The position numbers and the translations under genes were made by a program. This document shows positions 6,952 through 63,552 of a stretch of 64,000 nucleotides of DNA, piece by piece. Within the stretch, counting starts at the first letter, position 1. Every line of letters starts with the position of its first letter. The DNA comes from an uncultured Candidatus Saccharibacteria bacterium (GTDB lineage: Bacteria; Patescibacteriota; Minisyncoccia; Phycocordibacterales; UBA9973), in NCBI GenBank assembly GCA_964505155.1, contig CAZDGL010000001.1, forward strand, positions 1,286 to 65,285, read 5' to 3'. The notes beneath the pieces were generated by a model. It had not been told where the DNA came from. It searched no databases and saw only the letters and a program-made list of their open reading frames with translations.

Positions 6952-6958
6952 TAAAAAG

Positions 6959-7003: not shown

Positions 7004-7008
7004 CAATG

Positions 7009-7093: not shown

Positions 7094-7098
7094 AAAAA

Positions 7099-7186: not shown

Positions 7187-7197
7187 AGTGAAGATAT

Positions 7198-10080: not shown

Positions 10081-10085
10081 AAAAG

Positions 10086-10132: not shown

Positions 10133-10136
10133 GAAG

Positions 10137-31342: not shown

Positions 31343-32074
31343 ATGCAGCAATATACACCATACACTTATTTATTAGGATGGTCAACTCCTAAAATATATT
31401 ATTATGGTGTTCGATACTCAAAAAAGAGTAAATGTTTATATTTATCAGGATGTCATCCTGATGATTTATGGAATACTTATTTTACTTCTTCTGAATATGT
31501 AAAAAATACGTATTTATTATACGGAAATCCTGATATAATTCAGATTAGAAAAACTTTCAATACTGCAAAAGAAGCTTTAAATTGGGAAAAGAAAGTTTTA
31601 ACTAGAATGAAATTACATCAGCGACCCGATTTTTTGAATAAATGTGCTGGTGGTAGTATTTTTAATGATGAAGATGTTAGAAGAAAAGTGTCGTTAGCTC
31701 TTAAAGGAAAACCATTTTCTCAAGAACATAAAGATAACATTCGAAAATCAAAACAAAACATTTCTCCTGAAATTCGTGCTAATATGAGCCGAGGACAAAG
31801 ATCCAAATCACCTCCAACAATAGAAACAAGAATAAAAAGATCTAAAAGTATGAAAAAACTTCATTGGTATAATAATGGCAATGAAAGTAAGAGATTACTC
31901 GTATGTCCTGAAGGATGGACCCAAGGTCGACTTACTTTCACTAAAACCACTACTTATATCAAATGTTCAAACTGTGAAAGAAATATATCTAAGTCAAATT
32001 TTCGGAAACATTCGACTTTTTGCCTACGGTATACTTTGACACCAGAAGATAGTCCTTCTTCTCGGAAGCCTTGA
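31343..32074 (+). CDS. GIY-YIG homing endonuclease (Seg-like) with NUMOD3 repeats
   Basis: ...KIYYYGVRYSKKS...; repeats SQEHKDNIRKSKQ / SPEIRANMSRGQRSKS; an exact TATAAATA lies 23 nt upstream (31313..31320). Confidence 0.65.
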   Translation: MQQYTPYTYLLGWSTPKIYYYGVRYSKKSKCLYLSGCHPDDLWNTYFTSSEYVKNTYLLYGNPDIIQIRKTFNTAKEALNWEKKVLTRMKLHQRPDFLNKCAGGSIFNDEDVRRKVSLALKGKPFSQEHKDNIRKSKQNISPEIRANMSRGQRSKSPPTIETRIKRSKSMKKLHWYNNGNESKRLLVCPEGWTQGRLTFTKTTTYIKCSNCERNISKSNFRKHSTFCLRYTLTPEDSPSSRKP

Positions 32075-33567: not shown

Positions 33568-33780
33568 TCAATCAACAATTTCCCAATCGTCTGAAAGTAT
33601 ATCAGCTTGATTAGCTAACCAACCCGGTTGATATTTACCTTGAGCAGTAAACATTACTATATAAGGTTCGTACTTTTCGTACTCAGTTTCTAAATATAGA
33701 TACATGTTTTTGCCGTTCCATCCAGAACGTCTAACAAAATTTCCATTTTTTAGTTCTTCAATTGCTTGTCCAAAATTCAT
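33568..33780 (-). CDS. hypothetical protein
   Basis: 70 aa; its ATG overlaps the HNH stop (ATGA). Confidence 0.35.
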   Translation of the reverse strand: MNFGQAIEELKNGNFVRRSGWNGKNMYLYLETEYEKYEPYIVMFTAQGKYQPGWLANQADILSDDWEIVD

Positions 33781-34349
33781 TTAAACTCCAACTCTGCCAT
33801 CAATTCGGTTAGACATGCAGCATCAACATGTCCATATTTAATTCTGTTTTCTTTCCACTCTAACATTTGTAAATTATCCTTACTAGCAAGTATTTCAGGT
33901 TGAATAGAATTATTCCATCCATATATAATAGAGATTTTATGATCTAATTGATATCCACCTTCTACACCAGATAATGTTCTAGGATAATTATTAGGATTAA
34001 TTTCATTCATATGTTTAATATATGTTCGTTCTGTCAACACTCTTACTTTTGATAGATAGCTTTTAAATTTACGATTTCTTCTATCTGGATTATAAGATGG
34101 ATGGTTTGAGCCACTTCTATTTTTACCATACCAAGGATTATTTTCACCTTTCCATCTATCTGAAGATATATAATTACCTTGTCGTTTTTGTCCAGTTTGA
34201 GATTTCTGGTATTTTGCTATACTATCATGAGAATCTGCAGTTAATCCTTTATTCCAAGGAGATTTTCCAGTATTATCTGGAAGTATACCTCTAGCAACTC
34301 TTTTTTTAGCAGATTCCGACATTTTGCGTCGGGTTTCGTCTGAAATCAT
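33777..34349 (-). CDS. HNH-family homing endonuclease with N-terminal NUMOD3 repeat; the last 14 codons duplicate the gp44 C-terminus
   Basis: SDETRRKMSESAKKR (NUMOD3); C-terminal LDHKISIIYGWNN...NLQML (HNH-like); ends ...AACLTELMAELEFK, as does gp44. Confidence 0.7.
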   Translation of the reverse strand: MISDETRRKMSESAKKRVARGILPDNTGKSPWNKGLTADSHDSIAKYQKSQTGQKRQGNYISSDRWKGENNPWYGKNRSGSNHPSYNPDRRNRKFKSYLSKVRVLTERTYIKHMNEINPNNYPRTLSGVEGGYQLDHKISIIYGWNNSIQPEILASKDNLQMLEWKENRIKYGHVDAACLTELMAELEFK

Positions 34350-38395: not shown

Positions 38396-38424
38396 TTGAC
38401 AATTTTTCAAAACTAAGGTAGATT
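38396..38424 (+). promoter_or_regulatory. sigma70-type early promoter TTGACA-N17-TAGATT
   Basis: -35 at 38396..38401, -10 at 38419..38424; the ATG lies 25 nt downstream with a GGAG SD. Confidence 0.65.
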
Positions 38425-38448
38425 GGTTTCAACAAATGGAGAACGAAT

Positions 38449-38652
38449 ATGAACACCTACCGGATTGTGAAGCGAGCCTTCAGCGAATACACCGAGATCG
38501 AAACGGTCGAAGGTTGGGTAAACGCAATGGAGCGTGCCAGCATTCTTGAATTCACTCACAACGACGGTGAATATTTGGTTCTCTCGATGGATGAGCCGAA
38601 TAAGACTGAATCTACGGATCCCTATTTCCAGAGTGGTCTGGATTACCTTTAA
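38449..38652 (+). CDS. small GC-rich early protein (MN... family leader)
   Basis: 67 aa; leader and first codons (caaatggagaacgaatATGAACACC) are paralogous to the 62674 gene leader; GC3 far above the genome background. Confidence 0.5.
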   Translation: MNTYRIVKRAFSEYTEIETVEGWVNAMERASILEFTHNDGEYLVLSMDEPNKTESTDPYFQSGLDYL

Positions 38653-38664
38653 GGAGACCCTTCA

Positions 38665-38871
38665 ATGAACATCCGCTATTGGTTCGAAACCCTCAACGAC
38701 GCTCTGGAGTCTGAAGGACTGGTCGAATACTGGCCACTCGGTCTCAACATCGAATACGACCGAACCGTAGCCTTCGCTGCTAATGGAAAGTGGATCTCGG
38801 TCTATCGCGACAGCAATGGACGCTACGAACGTCCGATCCATTATTCGACAAAAATGCAAAACACCTATTGA
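38665..38871 (+). CDS. small GC-rich protein
   Basis: 68 aa, AAGGAG SD, starts MN. Confidence 0.5.
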   Translation: MNIRYWFETLNDALESEGLVEYWPLGLNIEYDRTVAFAANGKWISVYRDSNGRYERPIHYSTKMQNTY

Positions 38872-38896
38872 CACTTTTCAAAAGTTGAGATAGATT
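38868..38896 (+). promoter_or_regulatory. sigma70-type early promoter TTGACA-N17-TAGATT
   Basis: -35 at 38868..38873, -10 at 38891..38896. Confidence 0.65.
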
Positions 38897-38932
38897 GTTT
38901 TCATCAAATCGAAACCGGGAAAGGACATCCCC

Positions 38933-39127
38933 ATGAACGATTTTTCGAAGAAGACCCTGAAGACCCTCGCGAAGCGCGGGATCACCATCTACGGGATCAC
39001 CTTGATCCCTGACTTCAGCAATCCGATGCCTTTCGCGAATGGGACTCGCGGGTACAAGATCAACGACAACGACTGCGGTCGGATCTGGACCTTTCAGGAA
39101 GTCCTCAACGCAGCGAAGGGAGCCTAA
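38933..39127 (+). CDS. small GC-rich protein
   Basis: 64 aa, starts MN. Confidence 0.5.
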   Translation: MNDFSKKTLKTLAKRGITIYGITLIPDFSNPMPFANGTRGYKINDNDCGRIWTFQEVLNAAKGA

Positions 39128-39128
39128 A

Positions 39129-39326
39129 ATGACCGAAATGGCAACCGCACGGTTTATGCGACACTACCTCGAAATCGGTGATAAACTGAAGAGGATTCAG
39201 GAATTCCATGACAATCACTTCGAGGTGGATCCTGATAATATCAACTGGGGAGATTGTGGTTCGGTAGCTCATATCAATATGATGCTGAGTGAGGTTCTCG
39301 ACTTTATCGAACCTGAGCAGAGATAA
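39129..39326 (+). CDS. small GC-rich protein
   Basis: ATG at 39129 with a GGAG SD; 65 aa; the track's longer 39039 start overlaps the previous gene. Confidence 0.45.
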   Translation: MTEMATARFMRHYLEIGDKLKRIQEFHDNHFEVDPDNINWGDCGSVAHINMMLSEVLDFIEPEQR

Positions 39327-39330
39327 GAAA

Positions 39331-39356
39331 AGGAGCCGAAAGGCTCCTTAATTCTT
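39331..39356 (+). terminator. rho-independent terminator (GNRA tetraloop hairpin)
   Basis: AGGAGCC-GAAA-GGCTCCT then TAATTCTT; near-identical to the hairpin at 40726. Confidence 0.6.
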
Positions 39357-39403
39357 GGTGCGGACTAGCGGTAACGATCCGCTTTCTACTCGTTGGCAAC
39401 GAG

Positions 39404-40060
39404 TCATAATTCCTTTATACGAAGCCCGCTAAATTTTCGACCTTTATACCAACCTTCTGGTATCTGGTCAAGTTTATTTATCTTTCGGTTCCTAGTTCCA
39501 TCAGTTATCCACATAGTTCCGAAAGCAGGATTTTTCTGACCGTTTCTATCAACTTTTTGTTGAGCCTCAGATATTTTTCGTTTAATCTCGTCAGATTGAG
39601 TTTTACCTAGTTGAGAATAAACAAAATTTGATGACGGTATATGTTTGATACCTTTTTCTTTTTTTGCTAAGGCACCTTTAATTCCAAGTTCTCTTAGTTT
39701 TTCTTTTGAAAATTTACCTATAGAACTGTCATATCCTTTACGAACATATTCGTTTTTCAAATTTGACGAATTGATGTATTTAAACCCTCCACCGAACCCA
39801 CCTACACAAATATTGTAGGTGTTTGATAGTCCACACCAATCTTCATCTACTAATTCAGCTTCTTTGAGAAGCATATCTTGTTCGGTATCAAAACGATATA
39901 AGATCTCTTTATTAAAATTTTCACGTCCGTATTTCTTTACGGCATGCTTCAAATGAGTACCAGATCCAAGATATCCATCGTCTAAATTCTTAGTTTGATG
40001 GATGCCTCGATATACTTTATCGTTTAAGAGATTGGTAGTTTGGTAGACGATGTAGTGCAT
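39404..40060 (-). CDS. GIY-YIG homing endonuclease (Seg-like), paralog family member
   Basis: MHYIVYQTTNLLNDKVYRGIHQT...YLGSG; 218 aa. Confidence 0.8.
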   Translation of the reverse strand: MHYIVYQTTNLLNDKVYRGIHQTKNLDDGYLGSGTHLKHAVKKYGRENFNKEILYRFDTEQDMLLKEAELVDEDWCGLSNTYNICVGGFGGGFKYINSSNLKNEYVRKGYDSSIGKFSKEKLRELGIKGALAKKEKGIKHIPSSNFVYSQLGKTQSDEIKRKISEAQQKVDRNGQKNPAFGTMWITDGTRNRKINKLDQIPEGWYKGRKFSGLRIKEL

Positions 40061-40065
40061 TTAAG

Positions 40066-40110
40066 GGAGTCCTGATTACCGTTTACTATTATTTAGGTAA
40101 TCAGGACTCC
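40066..40110 (-). promoter_or_regulatory. 15-bp-stem hairpin with conserved CTAAATAATAGTAAAC loop upstream of the GIY-YIG gene
   Basis: ggagtcctgattacc / ggtaatcaggactcc; the SD AGGA lies in the 3' stem 10 nt from the ATG. Confidence 0.6.
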
Positions 40111-40115
40111 AAGGG

Positions 40116-40190
40116 AGCGTCCAGTCGGATTCGAACCGACACTTACTGGTTGGAAGCCAGTCGTGCTTAGCCGTTAAACACTATAGAAGC
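40116..40190 (-). tRNA. tRNA-Gly (anticodon UCC)
   Basis: Anticodon stem ACTGG/CCAGT, loop CTTCCAA, T-arm GTCGG-TTCGAAT-CCGAC, discriminator U; acceptor with one U.C mismatch; CCA not encoded. Confidence 0.65.
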
Positions 40191-40277
40191 ATATGGCCGC
40201 TGTGCTGCATTACACCATAGGGCATCAGGAAAATTGGCTGCCCCACCCAGAATTGAACTAGATCCTGCGACAAGGAT

Positions 40278-40307
40278 ATTTATATGCATTTTATCACGTG
40301 GTGTCAA
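40278..40307 (-). promoter_or_regulatory. sigma70-type promoter TTGACA-N17-TATAAAT (minus strand) upstream of tRNA-Gly
   Basis: Minus-strand TTGACAccacgtgataaaatgcaTATAAAT; transcription would run through a roughly 90 nt structured leader into tRNA-Gly. Confidence 0.55.
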
Positions 40308-40353: not shown

Positions 40354-40382
40354 TTGACAAATTCAGAGAAATACGCGATATT
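40354..40382 (+). promoter_or_regulatory. sigma70-type promoter TTGACA-N17-GATATT
   Basis: -35 at 40354..40359; weaker -10. Confidence 0.45.
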
Positions 40383-40428
40383 CAGATTATAGAAATTGAG
40401 CCGAAACAAACAACCGAAGGAGACTAAC

Positions 40429-40716
40429 ATGACTGCTACCGCTACGAAGCTTGGTCGCAAGGACGCTCTCACCAGCAAGGTGAAGGCCCACTACCTCACC
40501 AACCTCGACACCCTGACCAACCGCTACTACGCTGGTCGCTTGATGGACGAGGGTTTCATTTCGCAGGAGAATGTCCCTACCGGAAAGCAGGGACGTCCCC
40601 CGGTTCGCTACATCCTGACGGGTAAGGGTAAGGGTTTCCTGAGCCTTGCCTCGAAGTGGAACAAGCAGAAGGACGAGACGGTCATCGAGATTAACCCTTT
40701 CGAGATCAAGCTCTAG
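40429..40716 (+). CDS. GC-rich small basic protein with a GKQGRPP AT-hook-like motif
   Basis: ATG at 40429 with an AAGGAG SD; 95 aa; GC about 57% versus a genome around 40%; TGKQGRPPVRYILTGKGKG resembles the H-NS/Lsr2-type Q/RGR DNA-binding loop. Confidence 0.5.
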   Translation: MTATATKLGRKDALTSKVKAHYLTNLDTLTNRYYAGRLMDEGFISQENVPTGKQGRPPVRYILTGKGKGFLSLASKWNKQKDETVIEINPFEIKL

Positions 40717-40725
40717 AACGGAAGA

Positions 40726-40750
40726 GGGAGCCGAAAGGCTCCCTTTTTAC
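40726..40750 (+). terminator. rho-independent terminator
   Basis: GGGAGCC-GAAA-GGCTCCC followed by TTTTTAC. Confidence 0.7.
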
Positions 40751-40935
40751 TTTGCATACTCAATCAAGAACTGAGTAGGATTGAGTCCTGCATTTCTGAG
40801 ATAGGATTCCGCATCCTGAGGGTTTCGGAATTCCAGAAGCTTGGTTGCTCCAGACTCAGTATACTCCGACATGCTCTGGAGATATTGTCTTCCTTCAATA
40901 CTGAAAATTACGTACATTAGCGTTTCCTTATTCAA
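40747..40935 (-). CDS. hypothetical protein
   Basis: 62 aa ORF. Confidence 0.3.
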   Translation of the reverse strand: MNKETLMYVIFSIEGRQYLQSMSEYTESGATKLLEFRNPQDAESYLRNAGLNPTQFLIEYAK

Positions 40936-41701
40936 AGTCTAGCTGCTCAACGAGTCGCTCGTTAGCCTTGGTGAAGTATTCAGGATCTGCCTCGATACAA
41001 ACCCATTTGCGGTTCGTCTGTCGGGCAGCTACTGCCGTTGTTCCGGCTCCTGCAGTATTATCTAGGATAACTTCACCTTCGTTGCTGTAGGTTCGAATGA
41101 GATACGCGAACAAATCTACTGGCTTCTGAGTAGGATGAAACCCACTCGAATTAGAATCGAAGCGCAGGATTGAATCGGGATAGCCTTCGTATTCTGGTGT
41201 ATAATCCCTATGCGATGGTCTGGTGCCGATATGGCCACCATACTTGCGGGTTCCGTCCTGAACCTTAGGTCGCAATATTTTCTTCAACCCTTGAGGATTA
41301 TATGTCATTCTGGACGATGTCAAGTGCTCATGATTGGTCGTTGCCTTGGAAAATATGAGCACATTCTCATGTTTCTTCAGAGGCTTATTCTTTGCATGAA
41401 CAAATCCTGTGGGCTTGGTCTTCTCCCAGATCAATTCGTATTTGAAGTATTCAATCTGGGAAACGATGCACGCTGTGGTGAATGGTTGAGACGCAGTCAT
41501 AACCACCGTTCCCGTAGGCTTCAGGAGCCTCCAGTATTCATCCCATAGCTGATTAAATGGAAGAACCGAATCCCATCCACATTCCGTGGTTCCGTATGGC
41601 AAATCGACCAGCACCATATCAATCGAACCGGATGCTAGCTGTGGCATCACGTCGAAGCAATCACCCTGATAGAAAGTGCCATCGGGATATTCCTGTTTCA
41701 T
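40928..41701 (-). CDS. DNA methyltransferase, beta-class amino-MTase (CcrM/HinfI-like N6-adenine type)
   Basis: Motif IV VDLPYGTT precedes motif I DNTAGAGTTAVAA; paralog of 43946..44692; ATGA overlap with the gene 46 stop. Confidence 0.75.
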   Translation of the reverse strand: MKQEYPDGTFYQGDCFDVMPQLASGSIDMVLVDLPYGTTECGWDSVLPFNQLWDEYWRLLKPTGTVVMTASQPFTTACIVSQIEYFKYELIWEKTKPTGFVHAKNKPLKKHENVLIFSKATTNHEHLTSSRMTYNPQGLKKILRPKVQDGTRKYGGHIGTRPSHRDYTPEYEGYPDSILRFDSNSSGFHPTQKPVDLFAYLIRTYSNEGEVILDNTAGAGTTAVAARQTNRKWVCIEADPEYFTKANERLVEQLDFE

Positions 41702-43410
41702 TCGGATCCTTTGATAAACGAATAGTTCTTCTCTTTGATAAATTCAATCACTCTATCAAACTTGGACTGAAGCTGTGGTTTGTGGGAAATAATGATCGTG
41801 TTGGTCTCAGGCAGAAGTTTCTGGATTTGTTCAAACTCGTCCATTCCTTCCTCGTCCATGGAGGAATCCATAACCTCGTCCAAGATCAGGAGATTGGTAT
41901 TGATCGAATTCTTCTGCTTGGCAATATCCCTGAAAGCCCACAGAATGGCAAAATCAATTCGCATGGTCTCACCTGCGGACAGGGAGCCATAGCTGATTTC
42001 ATTGTATCCGAACTTGATGGATTCCTTGAAGGTCTCGTCCAGTTTGAATTCGATATCCATTCCCATTTGAGTGATGTATTTGTTGATTTTTTTGTTCAGG
42101 ATTGGAATGTACTTCTTGATGATTTTGGCCTTGATCCCGGTATCCTTGAGAAGCTCAATTGAGGTCTCTAGATCTTCCTTAGTAATAGAAAGAAGATTCT
42201 TTTTCTGCTTGACAAGAACCAGAGCATCCTTAGAATCTTGGAGACGCTCCTCAGTATCACGCTGTAGATCATCAGTTTTAGAAAGCTTGAGAATGTCATT
42301 GGATAGACGCTTTCGTTCGGACTTCTTTGAATCAATGGTGATCTTCAGCTTGGATATCTCGGCATTATAGCGTGCGACATCCTTCGTTAGTCTTTCAAGC
42401 TCCTCGATATCCTGATCGAGCTTCTTTAGCTCTTGCTCCACTTTGGTGATATTGTCAATCTGATTTTCAATAATTCCATCCAGATTGGATATGATGCTCT
42501 GAGAATGGTCGTGCGATATTCCCTGCAGACACGTTGGACACTTGACATTTTCCGTAAAGAAGCTTCTATCTTCTTTGTTTGTGGTAAGCTTCGTATTCAG
42601 CTTAACTCGAACGTCTTTCAATGCTGACCGTCTGGATGGTGCCTTCGTGTATTTCTCAATTTCCTCGGATAGAACCTCAACAAATCCCTTCAGTTCGATT
42701 TCTCGATCCACGGACGCGATGATAGTCGTATCGATTACCTCGATCTGCTTCTTCAGATCCTCGATCTTATCCTCGTTGTTGGATTGAATAGAGTCAATAG
42801 TCTTTTCCAGATACGAAATACGTTCTACCAGATTATCGTATTCATTGGAATTCTTGACAATATCTTCCTTCAGATCCACAAGTCTCTTCTTAGCAATCAC
42901 ATTCATGATTGAAAAGATACGGATATCCAGCAGATCTTCTACTACAATACGACGTTCTGCTGGTGTTAATTCTAGTAGAGGCTTATGAAGTTTGGCAGAT
43001 ACAATATTGATCTGCTTGAATCCCTTATACGAAGACTTCAGAATCGTCTTTTCTAGAATCTCCTGATAGTCTAGAGTAGAAGCTTCCTTGTTTAAAATCT
43101 CTCCATCGCATATGATATCAAATACTGCAGGCTTAAGTCCGCGTCTAATCATGTAGGACTTGCCTAGAGTATCAAATTCTACTTCAACTAGACAATCCTT
43201 CTTGTTGGTCCAGCTAACCAAATCCGGTTTGTTGATATTTCTATACGGCTTTCCATACAACGCAAAAGTCACGGCATCCATCACTGTGGATTTGCCGTGA
43301 CCGTTTTTACCAATGAACAAAGTATTCCGGTGAGAATCGAGTCTCACTTCGGTCATGACGTTGCCAGTACTTAAAAAGTTCTTCCAGCGAATTACTTTAA
43401 TCTTCAGCAT
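41698..43410 (-). CDS. 46: recombination endonuclease subunit gp46 (Rad50/SbcC-like ATPase)
   Basis: Walker A GKNGHGKST, coiled-coil middle, CPTC zinc hook, C-terminal LILDEVMDS (Walker B); 570 aa. Confidence 0.85.
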   Translation of the reverse strand: MLKIKVIRWKNFLSTGNVMTEVRLDSHRNTLFIGKNGHGKSTVMDAVTFALYGKPYRNINKPDLVSWTNKKDCLVEVEFDTLGKSYMIRRGLKPAVFDIICDGEILNKEASTLDYQEILEKTILKSSYKGFKQINIVSAKLHKPLLELTPAERRIVVEDLLDIRIFSIMNVIAKKRLVDLKEDIVKNSNEYDNLVERISYLEKTIDSIQSNNEDKIEDLKKQIEVIDTTIIASVDREIELKGFVEVLSEEIEKYTKAPSRRSALKDVRVKLNTKLTTNKEDRSFFTENVKCPTCLQGISHDHSQSIISNLDGIIENQIDNITKVEQELKKLDQDIEELERLTKDVARYNAEISKLKITIDSKKSERKRLSNDILKLSKTDDLQRDTEERLQDSKDALVLVKQKKNLLSITKEDLETSIELLKDTGIKAKIIKKYIPILNKKINKYITQMGMDIEFKLDETFKESIKFGYNEISYGSLSAGETMRIDFAILWAFRDIAKQKNSINTNLLILDEVMDSSMDEEGMDEFEQIQKLLPETNTIIISHKPQLQSKFDRVIEFIKEKNYSFIKGSE

Positions 43411-43867
43411 GTGATTTTATATACTCTATAGTTCTTTCCAATATTGTCACATCCTCTTTAGAATGTCCAATCATTGTATTGCAATTCACACACAATAATT
43501 TTCTAATTTTTCCAGTATTGTGATTATGATCTACACCTAATGATAATCCATTTTGCGGTGGATTAGAACAAATGAAGCACAAATTGTTTTGCTTTTCTAC
43601 CATTTCTTCGTATTCATCTATTGAAATACCAAATAAATGACGAAGTTTATAGTTCTTTCTTCCTCGAAAACCAAGTTTATCATGTCTTACTTTTCGAGTA
43701 TTCTGTCTTTCTTCTATGGAAAGAGAATGATATTCATTTTTACTCTTTTGAATTTCACACGCTTTACATTTAGGCTTATAAATGAATTCTACCTTTTTAC
43801 CTTTTCGCTGAACATAAAACTCCGAAACTGGTTTAGTAAGCTTACATTTAGTACAGGTTTTTTCCAT
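43397..43867 (-). CDS. HNH endonuclease
   Basis: VDHNHNTGKIRKLLCVNCNTMIGH; CTAAATA plus a hairpin upstream. Confidence 0.75.
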   Translation of the reverse strand: MEKTCTKCKLTKPVSEFYVQRKGKKVEFIYKPKCKACEIQKSKNEYHSLSIEERQNTRKVRHDKLGFRGRKNYKLRHLFGISIDEYEEMVEKQNNLCFICSNPPQNGLSLGVDHNHNTGKIRKLLCVNCNTMIGHSKEDVTILERTIEYIKSHAED

Positions 43868-43945: not shown

Positions 43946-44692
43946 TTAATCAAATTCCAGATAGAGATCAAGCTTGTCGACTGCCTGATTATAATACTTC
44001 GGATCCATTTCCATACAGATCCACTTCCGATTTGTCTGCCGAGCAGCAAATGCCGTTGTACCAGATCCTGCGGTATTGTCCAGCACCAATTCACCCTCAT
44101 TCGTGTAGGTTCGAATGAGATATGCAAACAAATCGATAGGCTTCTGGGTAGGATGCTCCGTATCCGTCACTGATGTAAATTCCAGAACCGAATGCGGATA
44201 GTTGGTGTATTCCTGAATGAATTCTTCACCCGGTTTGATACCCATCTTTCCGTAGTTTGGAGTCTGGTTCTTTCCACCAATGCAGACCTTATTGATCTTC
44301 TTCACACCCTGAGGATTGTAAGTGGGCAGATTTTTGTAGAAAATCAGGACGTTTTCGTGTGATTTCATCGGCATCTTCTTAGCATTCAAGAAGCCGGTCT
44401 TTCGGGATTTGTACCAGATCCATTCATACTTCAGATATTGGATCTGGGACATACCGAGAGTCTTGTCAAATGGTGTCTGTGCGGTAAGCACAATCACACC
44501 ATTTGGCTTCAGGACTCTCCAATACGCTGGCCACAATTCCTCGTATGGAATGATGTTATCCCATGGGTTCTCGGTCGTGCCGTATGGAAGATCCGCTAGA
44601 ATCATATCCACCGATCCCTCAGGAAGCAGTGGGAATACTTTCAAGCAATCATCATTATAGAATGTGCCGTCAGGGAATTCCTTCTTAATCAT
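43946..44692 (-). CDS. DNA methyltransferase, beta-class (CcrM-like), paralog of 40928..41701
   Basis: ADLPYGTT ... DNTAGSGTTAFAA; about 55-60% identical to the other copy over conserved blocks. Confidence 0.75.
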   Translation of the reverse strand: MIKKEFPDGTFYNDDCLKVFPLLPEGSVDMILADLPYGTTENPWDNIIPYEELWPAYWRVLKPNGVIVLTAQTPFDKTLGMSQIQYLKYEWIWYKSRKTGFLNAKKMPMKSHENVLIFYKNLPTYNPQGVKKINKVCIGGKNQTPNYGKMGIKPGEEFIQEYTNYPHSVLEFTSVTDTEHPTQKPIDLFAYLIRTYTNEGELVLDNTAGSGTTAFAARQTNRKWICMEMDPKYYNQAVDKLDLYLEFD

Positions 44693-50232: not shown

Positions 50233-50784
50233 TTATTTACAAAGATAAGATATTGCTCTCTTCAAGTATTCTACATTATCTTTAAAATGTCCTAATCCAT
50301 GATTACAATTCTGACATAATAATCCACGAAATCTACCCGTTTCATGACAATGATCAATTGATAATTCTTGTGATGATGGTGAATTACAATCACAAATCGA
50401 ACAAGTTTGTTGAACTTCTAATAAATGAAGAATATATTCTTCATTTTCAACTAATCCTAAAGATCTAATTTTTCGTTTTCTTAAAATAATTTTCTGTTTC
50501 TCTGGGTTATCTTGTTCCCATTTTCTTCTATGATATTCACGACGTTGTTTTTGTTCTTCAGTGGCATTAGCATTACGATATCGTTGGTTTGCAGCTTCAC
50601 ATTCACGACACGTGGATCTTGGTCGTGGAATTTTTCTAGTTCTAATTCTAAAATCATCAACAGGTTTTTTTGTCAAACATTTGACGCAAGTTTTTGTAGT
50701 TTCATTGTATCCGTAGTTACATGAACGACATTTTAGGGAGCGGGAATCTTTTAGGTTCCCACACCCACACAAATCTTTTGGCAT
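50233..50784 (-). CDS. HNH endonuclease
   Basis: IDHCHETGRFRGLLCQNCNHGLGH; CTAAATA at 50816..50822 plus a hairpin upstream. Confidence 0.75.
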   Translation of the reverse strand: MPKDLCGCGNLKDSRSLKCRSCNYGYNETTKTCVKCLTKKPVDDFRIRTRKIPRPRSTCRECEAANQRYRNANATEEQKQRREYHRRKWEQDNPEKQKIILRKRKIRSLGLVENEEYILHLLEVQQTCSICDCNSPSSQELSIDHCHETGRFRGLLCQNCNHGLGHFKDNVEYLKRAISYLCK

Positions 50785-50834: not shown

Positions 50835-51257
50835 CTATACCTTTTTAGCACACTCTGGTCCAATACCACTTGCGAGAGAGGTCGGTGTGGTAAGAAGTCT
50901 GTTGCACCGACCGCATTTACCGCTGTGGGAAATGTTGAGGTTCTCGCGAATCTTACCTTCCTTCAACCCATCCATCATGTAGTTGAAAGCGCGAACCGGG
51001 ATCGACTCCGCAGTCATTTTCGACTTCTTCGTCAGGACCAGAGTCTCGTTGGCACCCATGATCCCGATGTAGGTGTAGTCCGTCTCATTCGAGGGACCAG
51101 TCAGGACCGAGACGAAGGCAATATCCTTGTCCTTCGGACGCTTCACCCGGAAGGTGAAGTGCTTGGCAGTCTTGGTCGACTCCAGCGTGATCGTGGAATT
51201 CCCTGCGAGGAGGAAGGTCTTGGCATCAATCGCGTTGTCAAACATGGGTAGCTCCAT
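50835..51257 (-). CDS. hypothetical protein with C-terminal Zn-ribbon-like CxxC...CxxC
   Basis: 140 aa ORF. Confidence 0.35.
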   Translation of the reverse strand: MELPMFDNAIDAKTFLLAGNSTITLESTKTAKHFTFRVKRPKDKDIAFVSVLTGPSNETDYTYIGIMGANETLVLTKKSKMTAESIPVRAFNYMMDGLKEGKIRENLNISHSGKCGRCNRLLTTPTSLASGIGPECAKKV

Positions 51258-51293
51258 TTGATGAACCTACCATACTTCATTTCTGAAAACTTG

Positions 51294-51959
51294 TCAATAG
51301 AGAATTTGAAAATAACCCGAAGCGAGCCAATTATCGTTCCCAGAATCGGACATGGAAACTGAATAGTTTAACGGTGGGAAAGTGCTAAAGCACCGATATT
51401 TTGCATATAGCTTGGTGTTTACAGATACCACTTCACCATCTTCCGTAATAGACATGGATCTCCCTGATACCGCATTATCAGCACCAAAGATGCCGAATGC
51501 GACAAGAGCAGTTCTGAGTGTCGATATCGATACGTTCTGAGTGGTAGGAGTAGCATTCGTTCCTTGGGACTGAAACGATTGGTTGATGCCAAGAATCTTG
51601 AAGTTTGGTCGAAAGACCATCATGAATTTGTCGTCTTCAAGTCCTGAGATATTATGAAGACCAGTGAAGGTTTGACCAGCTTCGGTTCCGGTTGCCAATA
51701 GATAAGAAAGTTTGGCACGGTGTGAATCACCACCTGTTTCATTGATGATGTTGGTGAATTCTGGAATAGCAGTATCATTGACATCAAAAACCGAACCGTT
51801 TGATTGCTCGATGAGTACCACAAGATCATTATATCGAAGATCTGTTGGTGCCGTGATTTGTTCGGCATTAACGATTGTGCTGGTCACGTACCGCATTTTG
51901 AATACAGAATCAGGATTCGCTTGCGATAAAATTCCTAGATTTTGACCGACTACTGGCAT
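51294..51959 (-). CDS. hypothetical (possibly structural) protein
   Basis: 221 aa ORF. Confidence 0.35.
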   Translation of the reverse strand: MPVVGQNLGILSQANPDSVFKMRYVTSTIVNAEQITAPTDLRYNDLVVLIEQSNGSVFDVNDTAIPEFTNIINETGGDSHRAKLSYLLATGTEAGQTFTGLHNISGLEDDKFMMVFRPNFKILGINQSFQSQGTNATPTTQNVSISTLRTALVAFGIFGADNAVSGRSMSITEDGEVVSVNTKLYAKYRCFSTFPPLNYSVSMSDSGNDNWLASGYFQILY

Positions 51960-53418: not shown

Positions 53419-53895
53419 TTATTTATTCTTTCTGGACAGCTTTTTGTGAAAACGATCCGTGTAAGACATGTCTCCATTGTTGGAATAAGTCTTTCGAATA
53501 TCCTTGATAACGTATGATGGAATCCGAAACCACTTCAGGGTTCGGTACATCCAGTATGGAATATTCCCTCGTTCGTTATTGCATTGCGAACACATCATCA
53601 CGCAATTCTTGAGACCATTCGCTCGCGTCTGAGACGCTGGAATGACATGGTCGAATGTAGCGCGATTGTGTGCTCGCGCATCGTTCTTGAGCTTGCTGTT
53701 GTGCTCTGGGATAAAGCAGAATTTCTTGCAAACAATACAAAATCCCTTCTGTTCGGCATATCGAACCAAAAGGGATCTCGCTCGTTGTCGTCCAAACCTG
53801 CTCTTGCTTTGGTTAAAGGTACCAGCAGAATTGTTGAGCGATTGGATATAGATCTGGACTTCTGACAGTCCAGACCAGTTTGGCTTTTTAAACAT
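53419..53895 (-). CDS. HNH endonuclease
   Basis: FDHVIPASQTRANGLKNCVMMCSQCNNERGN. Confidence 0.7.
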   Translation of the reverse strand: MFKKPNWSGLSEVQIYIQSLNNSAGTFNQSKSRFGRQRARSLLVRYAEQKGFCIVCKKFCFIPEHNSKLKNDARAHNRATFDHVIPASQTRANGLKNCVMMCSQCNNERGNIPYWMYRTLKWFRIPSYVIKDIRKTYSNNGDMSYTDRFHKKLSRKNK

Positions 53896-54677
53896 CGCTT
53901 ACCACGACCCTGTCGTTTACGAAATCATAATGAGTCTTAGCTTGGTTCGCGAAAGACGTGATGTCGAAGACTATCTCATTGGGGTTCAGTTCGACCACTC
54001 GAAAAGCGAAAGAATGCTCGTCATCGAACCCTTCGTCCTGCAGACGATGGACGAAATCCTGAACATCCTGCTCCGTCTCAAACAGAGCCAGATTTTCCGT
54101 ATGACGCTTCTTCATGTGAACCACGAACATGTTTAGATTTCCTTCTCTACCGGAGTCAGGGAGACTCGCTCACCAGTCATGTCTTCCATCATTTCGATGA
54201 TGTGGGTGCAGGAATTGAATTCACCCTGACCCTCACCATAAGGATAGTTCCAAATCCATTTCCCGGTCATTTCGCAGTAGTAGAAAGAACCCCGGTCGAA
54301 TTTGGTGGAGGTTGTCTGGGCTTTGAAGATTTTCATGTCCAACTCCAATTTTCTAAAACCAATCTATCATAGAGATTCTGACAAGTCAACGGTTGACTTC
54401 TGAATTTCGGTACGATATGGTGGTCGAAATCAATGGAGATTGTTATGATCCGGTTGAACAAAGAAGAGCTTGCCACCATCAAAAAGTATGGTGAGAAAGA
54501 AGCTCGTAGGTGGGTTTCCGCTAAGAGCTACATCTTCAAGATCGGTGAACGATATAATATCGATAATGGTCTCGAAAAAACCTCGATCAATAATGTAGAC
54601 AAAAAAAATGGGGATCCGAAGACCCCCATTAGTTGACTTGGTTGGTTCCAAGTTCTTTTTTGCTTAGGTAAGATTTC

Positions 54678-62542: not shown

Positions 62543-62617
62543 ATTGGATCTCCCTACGGATTCTTTCTTGTTGTTTTTAAGGAATTCGGTTTATTTATGT
62601 TTCTGTGAAAAATCCCA

Positions 62618-62646
62618 TTGACAAAATTTGAAAAATGAAGTAGATT
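62618..62646 (+). promoter_or_regulatory. sigma70-type early promoter TTGACA-N17-TAGATT
   Basis: -35 at 62618..62623, -10 at 62641..62646; divergent from the gp19 late motif. Confidence 0.65.
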
Positions 62647-62673
62647 GTGAAAATCAAATCAATGGAGACGGAC

Positions 62674-62910
62674 ATGAACACCGAGACCCTTCATCAGCCT
62701 TCTACCTTCTTCTCGATTGACACTTGCCGCAGCTATTCGACCGAAGCGAACTTGATCAAGGGACTGAACAAGCTTTTCAACAAGGAAGAGATTTATCGCG
62801 CAATGGTGGTCAAGAACCGCGAAGGTCGCTTCACCGCAATCTTCCCAGTGAGTGCCGCTGACGGATACCTTGGTCGCTTCGCTCAGCATGGTTTCATGAC
62901 GATAGGTTGA
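62674..62910 (+). CDS. small GC-rich early protein (MN... family leader)
   Basis: ATG at 62674 (caatggagacggacATGAACACC) paralogous to the 38449 leader; the track starts at a GTG at 62647. Confidence 0.5.
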   Translation: MNTETLHQPSTFFSIDTCRSYSTEANLIKGLNKLFNKEEIYRAMVVKNREGRFTAIFPVSAADGYLGRFAQHGFMTIG

Positions 62911-62922
62911 AGGAGAAAGAAA

Positions 62923-63135
62923 ATGAATCATGACGATTTCTTCAAGCAAGCGGATAACGAAATGAAGTGGTTTGGACGAATCTTCTGGTTCGTGTTCGCT
63001 GTCGCTGCTATAATAATTGTGGGGACTTGGTCCTTCTATGGATTTGTAGCATACAAGGTGATTAGTGATCCTGCGGTAATTGGTCGGACTGCTGGTCAGA
63101 TTATGCAGGGTTTCATAGACGAAACGGAGAAGTGA
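62923..63135 (+). CDS. small membrane protein
   Basis: 70 aa with one long hydrophobic segment FGRIFWFVFAVAAIIIVGTWSFYGFVAY. Confidence 0.45.
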   Translation: MNHDDFFKQADNEMKWFGRIFWFVFAVAAIIIVGTWSFYGFVAYKVISDPAVIGRTAGQIMQGFIDETEK

Positions 63136-63136
63136 A

Positions 63137-63328
63137 ATGTACTTATTGTTTGCTGGATATTCTTACTATCCGAGAGGTGGTATGCATGATATGGTAGGTA
63201 AGTACCCCTCATTAGAGGAAGCAGTTAAAGCATGGGAAGATGATACTGATAGATATGAGAGGTGGGATTGGGGACATGTTTATTGCATAGAAAGTGATTG
63301 CACTATTCGTATGGAAAAGTCTAAGTGA
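63137..63328 (+). CDS. small hypothetical protein
   Basis: 63 aa ORF. Confidence 0.35.
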   Translation: MYLLFAGYSYYPRGGMHDMVGKYPSLEEAVKAWEDDTDRYERWDWGHVYCIESDCTIRMEKSK

Positions 63329-63519
63329 CTTGGTTCGATCTCTGCATACCCTGTAAGATAGGGACTGTGCCTGCATTGGTTAGAGTTGACAAACGTCAAC
63401 CAATCAAGATGTGAAGATTCCTTCGAATTCAGGAGCAGGAGAACGGAAAGTGGGAAAACGTTCTTGTCACTTATGTGGATGACTCTGGATACTTCAGAGC
63501 CGATAGAATGTAATAAAAA

Positions 63520-63537
63520 GGGAGGCATTTGCCTCCC
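63520..63537. terminator. bidirectional hairpin terminator
   Basis: GGGAGGC-attt-GCCTCCC flanked by AATAAAAA upstream and TTTATTGG downstream; serves gp18 (minus) and the cassette (plus). Confidence 0.6.
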
Positions 63538-63552
63538 TTTATTGGTTGTTGA

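What the first reader, a model, noticed from the sequence alone, without database searches (positions are those of the whole stretch)
38396..39356. GC-rich promoter-ORF-terminator cassettes with consensus sigma70 promoters and paralogous leaders (PeSL-like mobile early modules)
Three plus-strand islands (38396..39356, 40354..40750, 62618..63340) interrupt an otherwise minus-strand genome. Each starts with a near-perfect TTGACA-N17-TAGATT promoter and a short leader. The ORFs all begin Met-Asn. The leaders at 38419..38451 and 62641..62676 are near-identical (caa(a)tggaga.cg.a..ATGAACACC). The small ORFs have 55-60% GC with very high GC3, against a genome around 40% GC. The first two cassettes end with near-identical GAAA-tetraloop terminators. 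The layout matches the promoter-early-stem-loop shuffling modules described in T4-type phages. The composition suggests recent capture from a high-GC host. Their products, 63-95 aa, are candidates for host-takeover or anti-defence factors.
Basis: seen in the sequence. Interest (0 to 1): 0.65.

Follow-up and report, generated by a model that had tools for sequence, protein, structure and literature searches.

The report
Early-promoter gene cassettes in T4-like phage
A T4-like phage carries at least seven copies of one strong host-type promoter-plus-leader module, each driving one to three small accessory genes; the layout is a known style of phage early-gene organisation, but the genes nearest each promoter use unusually G/C-ending codons, and that bias looks maintained rather than freshly imported.

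Summary
Three exact TTGACA-N17-TAGATT promoters (38396, 38868, 62618) share spacer, start-site and GGAG leader sequence. Islands A and B end in hairpins with an identical 16-nt core. Cassette ORFs are 39-56% GC, not 55-60%. GC3 is 0.57-0.80 only in the ORF next to each promoter (backbone 0.43) and falls to background within about 450 nt.

The PeSL reading is half right. Close relatives swap ORFs exactly at the leader and start-codon boundaries, and the GT-gp46 gap is hyperplastic. However, no stem-loop precedes any promoter, which is a defining PeSL part.

"Recent capture from a high-GC host" is not supported:
- No bacterial relatives of A3 or B1 were found.
- Database homologues of A3, A4, C1 and D1 lie only in phages of Alphaproteobacteria.
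- High GC3 persists in diverged relatives.
- The cassettes share the genome's total lack of GGCG/CGCC (0 observed, 11 expected).

Most likely these are immediate-early sigma70 units whose promoter-proximal genes are kept in host-preferred codons. This is a variant of a known kind, of moderate interest.

The parts
38396..38448 (+). P1: TTGACA-N17-TAGATT promoter plus about 20-nt leader (TTCAACAAATGGAG Shine-Dalgarno), divergent from the GT gene
   Evidence: conserved in relatives L199, L200 and L201
38449..38652 (+). A1, 67 aa, GC3 0.57. No family match. The allele in L199 is only 62% identical, although the flanking GT protein is 98% identical
38665..38871 (+). A2, 68 aa, GC3 0.59. Its TGA stop lies inside the -35 hexamer of P2
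38868..38932 (+). P2: TTGACA-N17-TAGATT plus leader. Present in L199, absent in L201
38933..39127 (+). A3, 64 aa, GC3 0.80, phrog_27490. Homologues in Rhizobium and Sinorhizobium phages
39129..39326 (+). A4, 65 aa, GC3 0.52, phrog_14596. Homologues in Roseobacter and Ruegeria phages
39330..39349 (.). T1: hairpin AAGGAGCCGAAAGGCTCCTT at the convergent junction with tRNA-Gly(gcc); weak T-tract on the + strand
   Evidence: -18.2 kcal/mol, z -4.0
40354..40428 (+). P4: TTGACA-N17-GATATT plus a longer leader with AAGGAG; a weak family member
   Evidence: conserved in L194-L196
40429..40716 (+). B1, 95 aa, GC 55.9%, GC3 0.77. Predicted PadR/MarR-like winged helix. Near-ORFan
40721..40748 (.). T2: hairpin with the same 16-nt core as T1, followed by T5; convergent with the 40747-40917(-) ORF
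   Evidence: -21.3 kcal/mol, z -5.3
51246..51297 (-). P5: TTGACA-N17-TATGGT plus leader TCATCAAATGGAG. The -35 hexamer contains the TGA stop of the upstream 221-aa gene
   Evidence: homologous promoter in L197
50835..51245 (-). D1, 136 aa, DUF6011, GC3 0.70 (first 40 codons 0.80). Nearly all named homologues are in phages of Alphaproteobacteria
54337..54389 (-). P6: TTGACT-N17-TAGATT plus leader GAAAATTGGAG
53419..54336 (-). E1 (54133-54336, GC3 0.62), E2 (53888-54130, 0.58), E3 (53419-53895, HNH endonuclease, 0.51)
54393..54636 (+). P7 (TTGACT-N17-TATGGT, leader AATCAATGGAG), back-to-back with P6, and F1 (54445-54636, 63 aa, GC3 0.50)
62618..62673 (+). P3: TTGACA-N17-TAGATT plus leader, divergent from the tail tube gene
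62674..63328 (+). C1 (62674-62910, GC3 0.63, homologues in Rhizobium/Agrobacterium T4-like phages), C2 (62923-63135, DUF7248, 0.49), C3 (63137-63328, phrog_1411, 0.33)
63518..63539 (.). T3: bidirectional hairpin AGGGAGGCAtttGCCTCCCT between island C and the tail sheath gene
   Evidence: (-19.2 kcal/mol, z -4.5)

Best explanation
The window is part of a T4-like myovirus (about 151 kb, 42% GC) that most likely infects an alphaproteobacterium.

Anatomy. Scattered through the minus-strand backbone are at least seven copies of one regulatory module. Each module has a near-consensus host sigma70 promoter (TTGACA/T-N17-TAGATT or a close variant), a conserved start-site region and a roughly 20-nt leader ending in a GGAG Shine-Dalgarno sequence and ATG. 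Each copy drives 1-3 small accessory ORFs. Where a unit runs head-on into backbone transcription it ends in a strong hairpin (T1, T2, T3).

Timing (inferred). Unmodified host RNA polymerase fires these promoters immediately after infection, so the ORFs are immediate-early accessory genes. One of them, B1, is probably a small winged-helix DNA-binding regulator.

Shown by comparison with relatives. The promoter-leader is the stable part and the ORFs behind it are exchangeable, with breakpoints at the leader/SD and at the next start codon. This is functionally the same modular shuffling described for PeSLs, but without the PeSL stem-loop.

The G/C-ending codon bias. It is confined to roughly the first 350-450 nt behind each promoter. 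It is kept in diverged relatives. It coexists with the genome's own purging of GGCG/CGCC. It is therefore maintained, not a relic of recent import.

Most likely cause (inferred). The first-translated genes are selected for codons read well by the host's own tRNA pool, before the phage's many tRNA genes are expressed. The backbone uses A/T-ending codons instead.
For: PHAGE IDENTITY
- The major capsid protein is 61-63% identical to those of T4-like phages.
- The window also encodes a gp55 late sigma factor, tail tube and tail sheath, and 12 tRNAs.

MODULE FAMILY
- Supported (8 composite sites against 0.2 expected).

TERMINATORS
-.

EXCHANGEABILITY
- L199/L200 (GT protein 98% identical) carry a 62%-identical A1 allele. 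Nucleotide identity drops from 90% to 73% exactly at the leader.
- L201 (GT 85%) has P1-X-A3'-A4', with an unrelated 54-aa ORF X and no P2.
- L202 and about 160 more distant relatives have no such island.

GENE POOL
- Database homologues of A3, A4, C1 and D1 are in Rhizobium, Sinorhizobium, Agrobacterium, Caulobacter, Brevundimonas, Roseobacter and Sphingomonas phages of several morphotypes, apart from a few unassigned or metagenomic records and one Microbacterium phage record.
- No close relative of A3 or B1 was found in bacterial genomes.

CODON BIAS
- First ORFs have GC3 0.57-0.80 against a core of 0.433 +/- 0.048.
- A-ending four-fold codons are 9% against 29% in the core. NNC/(NNC+NNT) is 0.74 against 0.43. 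CTA, TCA, TTA and CAA are absent.
- Pooled GC3 by distance from the -35 hexamer is 0.72, 0.63, 0.65, 0.54, 0.45, 0.44 and 0.50 for successive bins.
- There is a step from 0.42 in the 40 codons upstream of P5 to 0.80 in the 40 codons downstream.

MAINTENANCE
- D1' in L197 is 63% identical at protein level while the backbone is 82-88% identical. It keeps GC3 0.65 among neighbours at 0.30-0.48 and sits behind a homologous promoter.
- A3 directly behind P2 has GC3 0.81. Its 86%-identical orthologue in second position in L201 has 0.55. Synonymous differences are biased 16:4.
- Cassette ORFs contain 0 GGCG/CGCC against 11.1 +/- 2.2 (minimum 4 of 500) in synonymous shuffles. Homologue-bearing phages contain many.

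PRECEDENT
- Early versus late codon-usage differences in phages are documented (PMC5683454).
Against: - There are no expression data, so 'early' rests on promoter type and analogy with T4-like phages.
- The host is unknown, so 'host-preferred codons' could not be scored.
- GGC, normally the leading Gly codon in high-GC Alphaproteobacteria (from memory, not checked here), is used 0 of 39 times in the first ORFs, against GGT at 64%. GGCG avoidance explains this only partly.
- The phage tRNA set includes GNN as well as UNN anticodons, so the early/late tRNA partition is not clean.
- The within-gene GC3 decline seen in D1 is not seen in D1' of L197.
- A1 to A2 shows no decline.
- The positional-recoding argument rests on one orthologue pair (A3).
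- Codons are not independent, so the distance correlation (p = 4e-9) is overstated.
- P4, P6 and P7 resemble the family only moderately.
Confidence: 0.6

Rival explanations
1. Age gradient, as in an integron. New ORFs from GC-richer phages of the same alphaproteobacterial hosts are inserted by recombination at the promoter-leader. The newest, least ameliorated gene therefore always sits next to the promoter and older ones lie downstream.
For: - Replacement events map to the leader/start-codon boundary.
- Homologues live in phages with GC3 about 0.55-0.65 or higher.
- Codon usage (RSCU) of the first ORFs correlates better with a Rhizobium T4-like phage (r = 0.50) than with the window core (r = 0.21).
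- D1 and A1 are much more diverged between relatives than their flanks, as expected for allele replacement.
Against: - The cassette ORFs are fully purged of GGCG/CGCC and CCWGG, whereas the homologue-bearing phages contain many. Purging takes time, and amelioration should have proceeded over the same period.
- No donor closer than 43-67% amino-acid identity was found.
- A3 and A3' are orthologues of equal age yet differ directionally in GC3 according to their position.
- GGC is absent, unlike in the candidate donor pool, where it is 26% of Gly codons.
Confidence: 0.2
2. One reading: true PeSL elements (composite terminator-promoter) flanking ORFs recently captured from a high-GC host chromosome.
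For: - Near-consensus sigma70 promoters are repeated in a hyperplastic region.
- Two near-identical terminators are present.
- GC3 is elevated.
Against: - No stem-loop lies upstream of any promoter. Stop codons are embedded in the -35 hexamer at P2 and P5.
- The terminators are not paired with promoters.
- A3 and B1 have no bacterial relatives, and named database homologues of A3, A4, C1 and D1 are all in phages.
- GC3 elevation and site purging are shared with diverged relatives.
- GC is 39-56%, not 55-60%.
Confidence: 0.07
3. Recombination-driven GC-biased gene conversion. The promoter-leader repeats are recombination hotspots, and biased repair enriches G/C at silent sites in the adjacent DNA.
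For: GC3 decays with distance from the modules, and the modules are sites of exchange between relatives.
Against: - The effect is strictly one-sided: 0.42 upstream against 0.80 downstream of P5, and 0.53 upstream against 0.87 downstream of P2.
- The modules themselves are AT-rich, at 32-39% GC.
- The bias is codon-specific (GGT, not GGC; A-ending codons avoided more than T-ending) rather than a general shift from A/T to G/C.
Confidence: 0.06
4. Chance or artefact: the promoters are fortuitous consensus matches, and the small ORFs are not genes.
For: Simple sigma70 scans give many hits in AT-rich DNA: 67 against 48 expected.
Against: - Exact and composite motif counts far exceed shuffles.
- Similarity extends beyond the hexamers.
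- The ORFs are conserved in relatives with mainly synonymous change.
- Several ORFs match PHROG or Pfam families.
Confidence: 0.02

Closest known systems
PeSL elements (promoter-early stem-loops) of T4-like phages RB49/phi1, T4/PST and KVP40/nt-1 (PMC2839356, PMC4122927)
   Same: - A conserved sigma70-like promoter with N17 spacing, then a Shine-Dalgarno sequence and ATG.
- Repeated many times, concentrated in hyperplastic regions, in front of small ORFans.
- ORF insertions and replacements between close relatives have borders at the element.
   Different: - No stem-loop/terminator upstream of the promoter at any of the six copies tested. At two copies the -35 hexamer overlaps the upstream stop codon.
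- Hairpins occur only at the 3' ends of units, at convergent junctions.
- Four of the seven units run against the backbone.
- Exact identity between copies looks short, about 9 nt by eye from the alignments.
- Mini-circle formation was not testable.
T4 immediate-early transcription units (host sigma70 promoters with extended conserved sequence, small host-takeover ORFs)
   Same: Strong host-type promoters conserved beyond the hexamers, short leaders with GGAG, small accessory proteins, and a phage that also encodes a gp55-type late sigma factor.
   Different: Timing is not measured here. The units are interspersed within replication and structural modules, for example between tail tube and tail sheath. 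No MotA/AsiA-type middle mode was examined.
Morons of lambdoid phages (promoter-ORF-terminator units inserted between genes of another operon)
   Same: B1 is a textbook promoter-one ORF-terminator unit with composition unlike its neighbours, lying between backbone genes.
   Different: This is a virulent T4-like phage, not a prophage. The promoter is a repeated native module rather than imported with the gene. The composition difference appears maintained, not transient.
Early versus late codon-usage partition in phages, and phage tRNAs compensating for codons rare in the host (PMC5683454)
   Same: Temporal gene classes use different synonymous codons, and the phage carries many tRNAs.
   Different: Here the bias is graded with distance from each promoter and limited to a few hundred nucleotides. 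It is not a property of the whole early class: replication genes have backbone GC3.

Membership tests
PeSL (promoter-early stem-loop) | Near-consensus sigma70-like -35 and -10 hexamers with about 17-nt spacing | tested here: met
   TTGACA-N17-TAGATT occurs three times against 0.11 expected. Variants at 40354, 51297(-), 54389(-) and 54393(+).
PeSL (promoter-early stem-loop) | [quoted passage not shown] 3 legend) | tested here: not met
   The 70 nt upstream of P1-P6 fold with z -0.87 to +0.18 against shuffles. At P2 and P5 the -35 hexamer contains the upstream ORF's TGA stop.
PeSL (promoter-early stem-loop) | Shine-Dalgarno sequence and start codon of the downstream gene at the 3' end of the element | tested here: met
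   A GGAG or AGGA lies 5-8 nt before the ATG in all seven copies.
PeSL (promoter-early stem-loop) | Many sequence-conserved copies per genome, preferentially in hyperplastic regions next to ORFans | tested here: met
   Seven copies in 64 kb. Four share 21-30 of 41 non-hexamer positions. The GT-gp46 gap ranges from 0.65 to 6.4 kb in relatives. A1, A2, B1, E1 and E2 have no family match.
PeSL (promoter-early stem-loop) | Insertions, deletions or replacements between closely related genomes have their borders in the elements | tested here: met
   Window versus L201: homology ends at 38436 (P1 leader) and resumes at 38928 (5 nt before the A3 ATG). Window versus L200: identity falls from 90% to 73% at 38436. 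Only short metagenomic contigs were available, so few events could be seen.
PeSL (promoter-early stem-loop) | Recombination between tandem elements yields excised mini-circles | not testable with these tools
   This needs PCR or sequencing of infected cells or virions.
Moron (promoter-ORF-terminator insert) | An autonomous promoter and terminator flank one ORF placed between genes of another transcription unit | tested here: met
   B1: P4 at 40354, ORF 40429-40716, T2 at 40721-40748 with T5. Other units hold 2-3 ORFs.
Host-derived (recently captured) gene | Close homologues in bacterial chromosomes and donor-like oligonucleotide content | tested here: not met
   A3 and B1 gave no confirmed relative in 185,579 species genomes. 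There are 0 GGCG/CGCC in cassette ORFs against 11.1 expected.
T4-like myovirus | T4-type major capsid, tail tube and sheath, sliding clamp, gp46-like protein and gp55 late sigma factor | tested here: met
PadR-like winged-helix regulator (B1) | A Pfam PadR match above threshold and a winged-helix fold | tested here: inconclusive
   B1 itself has no Pfam hit. Five of 41 distant relatives hit PadR (best 1.2e-6). The family profile hits PDB 5h20 at E = 1.2e-4. The model has pLDDT 85.6. Foldseek finds PadR/MarR chains at probability 0.96-0.99 but E >= 0.013 and TM 0.4-0.5.
DUF6011 (D1) | Pfam PF19474 match above its gathering score | tested here: met
   47.4 bits against a cutoff of 26.6.

The most novel reading that the evidence does not exclude
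Synonymous codon choice in this phage is set by distance from an immediate-early promoter. Whatever ORF sits within about 350 nt of the module is recoded toward G/C-ending, host-type codons, and it relaxes when it moves to a downstream position, as with A3 at GC3 0.81 behind P2 against 0.55 as second cistron in L201. The backbone relies on A/T-ending codons and phage tRNAs. This would be a fine-scale, position-dependent partition of host and phage translation resources within single operons, operating on exchangeable cassettes.
Probability: 0.3. Interest if true: 0.6.

Novelty: new variant of a known kind. Interest (0 to 1): 0.42.

Why it matters
Repeated early promoter cassettes are the accepted route by which T4-like phages acquire and swap host-adaptation genes. 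This case shows the same shuffling in a distant, probably alphaproteobacterial, T4-like lineage that lacks the stem-loop half of the published element.

The useful new point is the composition. A compositional island that would normally be read as recent horizontal transfer here looks maintained, because it is position-dependent, shared by diverged relatives and purged of the genome's forbidden sites.

If the codon bias is selected, it gives a simple sequence signature for picking out immediate-early genes, which are candidate takeover and anti-defence factors, in uncultured tRNA-rich phages. It also cautions against inferring recent capture from GC3 alone.

Tried and rejected
- Nucleotide searches of the region against 50,697 phage records (near and distant modes) found nothing.
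- About 160 backbone relatives from IMG/VR and JGI metagenomes (GT protein 64-75% identical) contain none of the cassette ORFs and no TTGACA-N17-TAGATT. They could not serve as close pairs.
- B1 has no relative in IMG/VR, phage GenBank or bacterial genomes. Only HMMER against 1.8 billion representatives found distant relatives.
- The B1 family alignment was too diverse for a genome scan.
- The tail tube protein found no close relatives in IMG/VR.
- The cassette proteins are not paralogues of one another: all BLASTP E-values exceed 0.2.
- An exact-pattern scan for the promoter-leader in IMG/VR returned a different, marine T4-like group. It uses a similar module several times per contig but shows no GC3 elevation. 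I treat that similarity as partly forced by the pattern I searched with.
- The late-promoter motif TATAAATA is not enriched, 4 against 2.8 expected, so promoter classes could not be contrasted that way.
- Rfam finds only tRNAs, so no known RNA element lies in the leaders.
- The rhizobial sigma70 consensus CTTGAC-N17-CTATAT (PMC2873474) is compatible with the promoters, but so is the E. coli consensus, so it does not discriminate.
- Exact look-up of the source record gave only its length, 151,180 bp in NCBI, with no name or host.
Full report
CONTEXT

The 64-kb window (41.9% GC) is part of a T4-like myovirus.
- Its major capsid protein (55405-56724, minus strand) is 61-63% identical to those of Methylophilales, Pelagibacter, Synechococcus and Stenotrophomonas T4-like phages.
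- It also encodes a sliding clamp, a gp46-like protein, a gp55-type late sigma factor, tail tube and tail sheath, and 12 tRNAs.
- It carries many low-GC3 homing-endonuclease genes.
- Nearly all genes are on the minus strand.
- There is no nucleotide match in 50,697 phage records.
- An identical protein is on record from a 151,180-bp NCBI contig, but no name is available.

CHECK OF THE OBSERVATION

Promoters. The exact pattern TTGACA-N17-TAGATT occurs three times, all on the plus strand, at 38396 (P1), 38868 (P2) and 62618 (P3). Shuffles give 0.11. The promoter at 40354 (P4) is TTGACA-N17-GATATT, so the statement that each island starts with TAGATT is not correct for island B.

Family similarity. 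Alignment and a position matrix show that P1, P2, P3 and a minus-strand copy at 51297 (P5, TTGACA-N17-TATGGT) share 21-30 of 41 positions outside the hexamers. The shared positions include an A/T-rich spacer, TAGATTG, and the leader TCAWCAAATGGAG.

Further members.
- P6 lies at 54389 on the minus strand (TTGACT-N17-TAGATT, leader GAAAATTGGAG).
- P7 lies back-to-back with it at 54393 on the plus strand (TTGACT-N17-TATGGT, leader AATCAATGGAG).
- The two -35 hexamers form a 7-bp palindrome.
- A composite pattern of -35, -10, SD and ATG gives 8 sites against 0.2 in shuffles. The eighth site is an unrelated consensus promoter at 49451(-).

Leaders and terminators. The A1 and C1 leaders and first three codons are indeed near-identical. 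Islands A and B end in hairpins with an identical 16-nt core, GGAGCCGAAAGGCTCC. These fold at -18.2 and -21.3 kcal/mol, z -4.0 and -5.3. Island C ends at a different strong hairpin at 63518-63539. All three hairpins sit where plus-strand units meet minus-strand genes.

ORFs.
- Island A holds four ORFs (A1-A4, 64-68 aa) under two promoters.
- The 95-aa reading at 39039 is an overlap artefact. A4 starts at 39129, as in the relative L201 and in the PHROG alignment.
- Five of the eight ORFs in the three reported islands begin Met-Asn, against 3 of 85 backbone ORFs. This is an enrichment, not a rule.

Composition. GC is 39-56%. GC3 values against a backbone core of 0.433 +/- 0.048 (maximum 0.54) are as follows:
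- Unit P1: A1 0.57, A2 0.59.
- Unit P2: A3 0.80, A4 0.52.
- Unit P4: B1 0.77.
- Unit P3: C1 0.63, C2 0.49, C3 0.33.
- Unit P5: D1 0.70.
- Unit P6: E1 0.62, E2 0.58, E3 0.51.

Every genuine high-GC3 ORF in the window lies behind one of these promoters; the only other ORF above 0.55 (7006-7191, +) is antisense to two tRNA genes.

WHAT THE ORFS ARE

- They are real genes. They are conserved in relatives with mostly synonymous change, and several match families: A3 phrog_27490, A4 phrog_14596, C3 phrog_1411, C2 DUF7248, D1 DUF6011/phrog_20259.
- They are not paralogues of one another.
- tblastn against phage genomes places their homologues, with few exceptions, in phages of Alphaproteobacteria of several morphotypes:
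  - D1: 37 of 42 records are Caulobacter, Rhizobium, Sinorhizobium, Brevundimonas or Agrobacterium phages. The other five are four unassigned or metagenomic records and one Microbacterium phage.
  - A4 in Roseobacter and Ruegeria phages.
  - A3 in Sinorhizobium and Rhizobium phages.
  - C1 in Rhizobium and Agrobacterium T4-likes and Sphingomonas phages.
- B1 is nearly an ORFan. Forty distant relatives found by HMMER give a profile that weakly matches PadR. The AlphaFold model (pLDDT 85.6) resembles PadR/MarR winged helices.
- Neither A3 nor B1 has a confirmed relative in 185,579 bacterial and archaeal species genomes.

RELATIVES AND PLASTICITY

Distant relatives. About 160 backbone relatives (GT protein 64-75% identical) were retrieved from IMG/VR and JGI metagenome collections. 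They have no cassette ORF and no TTGACA-N17-TAGATT. In the 44 IMG/VR relatives where the GT-gp46 interval could be measured, it is filled with 0.65-6.4 kb of almost entirely co-oriented genes. The interval is therefore hyperplastic.

Close relatives in Logan assemblies.
- L199/L200 (GT 98% identical) carry P1, an A1 allele that is only 62% identical and has a different N-terminus, then A2 (92%), P2 and A3. Nucleotide identity drops from 90% to 73% exactly at the P1 leader.
- L201 (GT 85%) carries P1, an unrelated 54-aa ORF X, then A3' and A4' with no P2. Homology to the window stops at 38436 in the leader and resumes at 38928, 5 nt before the A3 start.
- L202 (GT 80%) has a co-oriented AAA_5 gene instead of an island.
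- L197 (backbone proteins 82-88% identical) keeps a P5-like promoter and a 63%-identical D1 at the same site, but lacks the HNH gene downstream.
- L194 (94-97% nucleotide identity) keeps A4-T1-tRNA-tRNA-P4-B1-T2. It lacks the GIY-YIG gene between the two tRNA-Gly genes and has a different methyltransferase beyond 40919.

The promoter-leader is therefore the conserved arm and the ORFs behind it are the exchangeable part.

COMPARISON WITH PeSLs

The published element (PMC4122927) has an AT-rich region, a stem-loop just upstream of a sigma70-like promoter, and then SD and ATG. It is concentrated in hyperplastic regions and sits at the borders of indels between close relatives.
- Met here: promoter, SD/ATG, copy number, location and border criteria.
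- Not met: the stem-loop criterion. The 70 nt upstream of P1-P6 fold no better than shuffles. At P2 and P5 the -35 hexamer contains the TGA stop of the upstream ORF, and L197 shows what appears to be the same layout.

The window therefore works like a PeSL system but is not a member in the strict sense.

THE COMPOSITION

Codon tables.
- The promoter-proximal ORFs avoid A-ending codons: 9% of four-fold sites against 29% in the core. CTA, TCA, TTA and CAA are never used.
- They prefer NNC over NNT, 0.74 against 0.43.
- They favour CGC, TCG, CCG, CTC/CTG, GTC and ACC.
- This pattern correlates better with a Rhizobium T4-like phage (r = 0.50) than with the window's own core (r = 0.21).
- GGC is used 0 of 39 times, against GGT at 64%.

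Position dependence.
- Pooled over seven units, GC3 by distance from the -35 hexamer is:
  - 50-150 nt: 0.72.
  - 150-250 nt: 0.63.
  - 250-350 nt: 0.65.
  - 350-450 nt: 0.54.
  - 450-600 nt: 0.45.
  - 600-800 nt: 0.44.
  - 800-1000 nt: 0.50.
- The change is one-sided: 0.42 in the last 40 codons before P5 against 0.80 in the first 40 codons of D1.
- The modules themselves are 32-39% GC.

Three observations argue that the bias is maintained rather than a residue of recent import.
1. D1' in L197 has diverged to 63% identity but keeps GC3 0.65 among neighbours at 0.30-0.48. A1', A2' and X are also at 0.63-0.67.
2. A3 directly behind P2 has GC3 0.81. Its 86%-identical orthologue in second position in L201 has 0.55. 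Synonymous differences at conserved residues are 16 (window G/C, relative A/T) against 4 in the reverse direction. Pairs in equivalent positions (A1, A2, B1, D1) are roughly symmetric.
3. The whole window contains no GGCG/CGCC, against 248 expected from base composition or about 102 per motif from a Markov model, and no CCWGG, against 71 expected in total from base composition or about 92 per motif from a Markov model.
   - The nine GC-rich cassette ORFs share this: 0 GGCG/CGCC against 11.1 +/- 2.2 in synonymous-codon shuffles, with a minimum of 4 in 500 shuffles.
   - The phages that carry homologues contain these motifs freely.
   - Freshly imported high-GC DNA would be full of them.

MECHANISM

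Shown.
- The repeated promoter-leader family.
- The operon structure and the terminators.
- The exchange of ORFs at module borders.
- The phage-pool origin of the ORFs.
- The positional, persistent codon bias.

Inferred.
- The promoters are immediate-early promoters read by host sigma70 polymerase. This rests on analogy with T4-like phages and on the presence of a gp55 late sigma factor.
- The codon bias reflects selection for codons served by the tRNAs of a probably high-GC alphaproteobacterial host, before phage tRNAs accumulate. Early/late codon differences are a known kind of effect in phages (PMC5683454).

Weak points.
- There are no expression data and the host is unknown.
- The absence of GGC is unexplained.
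- The phage tRNA set is mixed.
- The within-gene decline of D1 is not conserved in L197.
- Only one orthologue pair supports positional recoding.

Rivals.
- An integron-like age gradient of imports from GC-richer phages.
- One-sided GC-biased gene conversion.
- Chance.

VERDICT

- The PeSL analogy holds functionally but fails one defining structural test.
- Host capture is not supported.
- This is a new variant of a known kind of phage early-gene cassette.
- Two aspects are of real, moderate interest: a promoter-distance-dependent codon bias that looks maintained, and, seen in passing, complete avoidance of GGCG/CGCC, CCWGG and several 6-bp palindromes.

Noticed in passing
window 1-64000: GGCG/CGCC is completely absent (0 observed; 248 expected from base composition, about 102 per motif from a Markov model). 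CCWGG is also completely absent (0 observed; 71 expected in total from base composition, about 92 per motif from a Markov model). ACCGGT, CTCGAG, CCCGGG and GAGCTC are at zero as well, and CGATCG, CAGCTG, GGCTG/CAGCC and GCCCT/AGGGC are strongly depleted. Close relatives (L084, L194-L196, L199-L201) share the zeros. L197 shares them partly (5 GGCG, 0 CCWGG). About 160 more distant backbone relatives show no avoidance. This looks like extensive restriction-site avoidance, including an unusual non-palindromic 4-mer.
   Followed up: partly
window 39356-40190; also 6718-7093 and 9445-10208: A GIY-YIG homing-endonuclease gene (39404-40060, GC3 0.26) sits between tRNA-Gly(gcc) and tRNA-Gly(tcc). It is missing from the 94-97%-identical contig L194, where window 39423-40113 is replaced by about 20 nt. 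Two paralogous GIY-YIG genes, one truncated, also abut tRNA genes and share an 88-nt upstream repeat (D1, D3 and D5).
   Followed up: partly
window 50233-50784: An endonuclease VII/HNH-like gene (GC3 0.15) lies directly after D1. It is absent from the syntenic relative L197, which has a 300-bp spacer with a hairpin instead. Other low-GC3 endonuclease-like ORFs are at 4272-4772, 6125-6703(+), 31343-32074(+), 33777-34349, 43397-43867 and 54678-55298. Cassettes and homing endonucleases tend to be neighbours.
   Followed up: partly
window 40928-41701 and 43946-44692; L194 1226-1492: Two paralogous DNA methyltransferase genes flank gp46, with 71% nucleotide identity over their first 210 nt. In the close relative L194 the gene at the first position is a different methyltransferase, only about 37% identical, and homology breaks at 40919.
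   Followed up: partly
window 62543-63552: Island C (P3, C1-C3, T3) is inserted on the opposite strand between the tail tube and tail sheath genes. In the distant T4-like contig L101 these two genes are only about 50 bp apart.
   Followed up: partly
window 38868-38873 and 51292-51297: The TGA stop codon of the upstream ORF (A2, and the 221-aa gene 51294-51959) lies inside the TTGACA -35 hexamer (TAT TGA CA in both). L197 appears to have the same layout.
   Followed up: yes
window 54376-54400: Divergent promoters P6 and P7 are back-to-back. Their -35 hexamers form the palindrome AGTCAAC-c-GTTGACT.
   Followed up: partly
L085-L111 (IMG/VR), e.g. L094 116, 5789, 6247: A marine T4-like group carries a very well conserved promoter-leader, TTGACATT...AGAATCAG.TAGATTGTATATATCAAATGAAAAGGA, in front of different small ORFs. 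There are up to three copies in 11 kb and the same module on contigs of 182-201 kb. The downstream ORFs show no GC3 elevation.
   Followed up: partly
L192 2020-2100 and 2890-2990; L193 2240-2310 (Rhizobium phage RHph_N34): This Rhizobium T4-like phage has its own repeated promoter-leader module (TTGTTTAC...N...aatcataaacaa..acGGAG-N7-ATG) in front of small ORFs, including the C1 homologue.
   Followed up: no
window 63400-63500: A coding-looking stretch (...QEQENGKWENVLVTYVDDSGYFRADRM*) with no usable start codon lies between C3 and T3. It may be a decayed cassette ORF.
   Followed up: no
window 39356-39429: tRNA-Gly(gcc) is called by ARAGORN but not by Rfam at its gathering score. Its 5' end overlaps the 3' end of the GIY-YIG ORF and the insertion breakpoint seen against L194. 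tRNA-Val(gac) at 8792 and tRNA-Cys at 15451 are also ARAGORN-only calls.
   Followed up: no
window 40277-40284 (-): One of only four TATAAATA (T4 late-promoter-like) motifs in the window lies just upstream of tRNA-Gly(tcc) on the minus strand, between that tRNA and P4.
   Followed up: no
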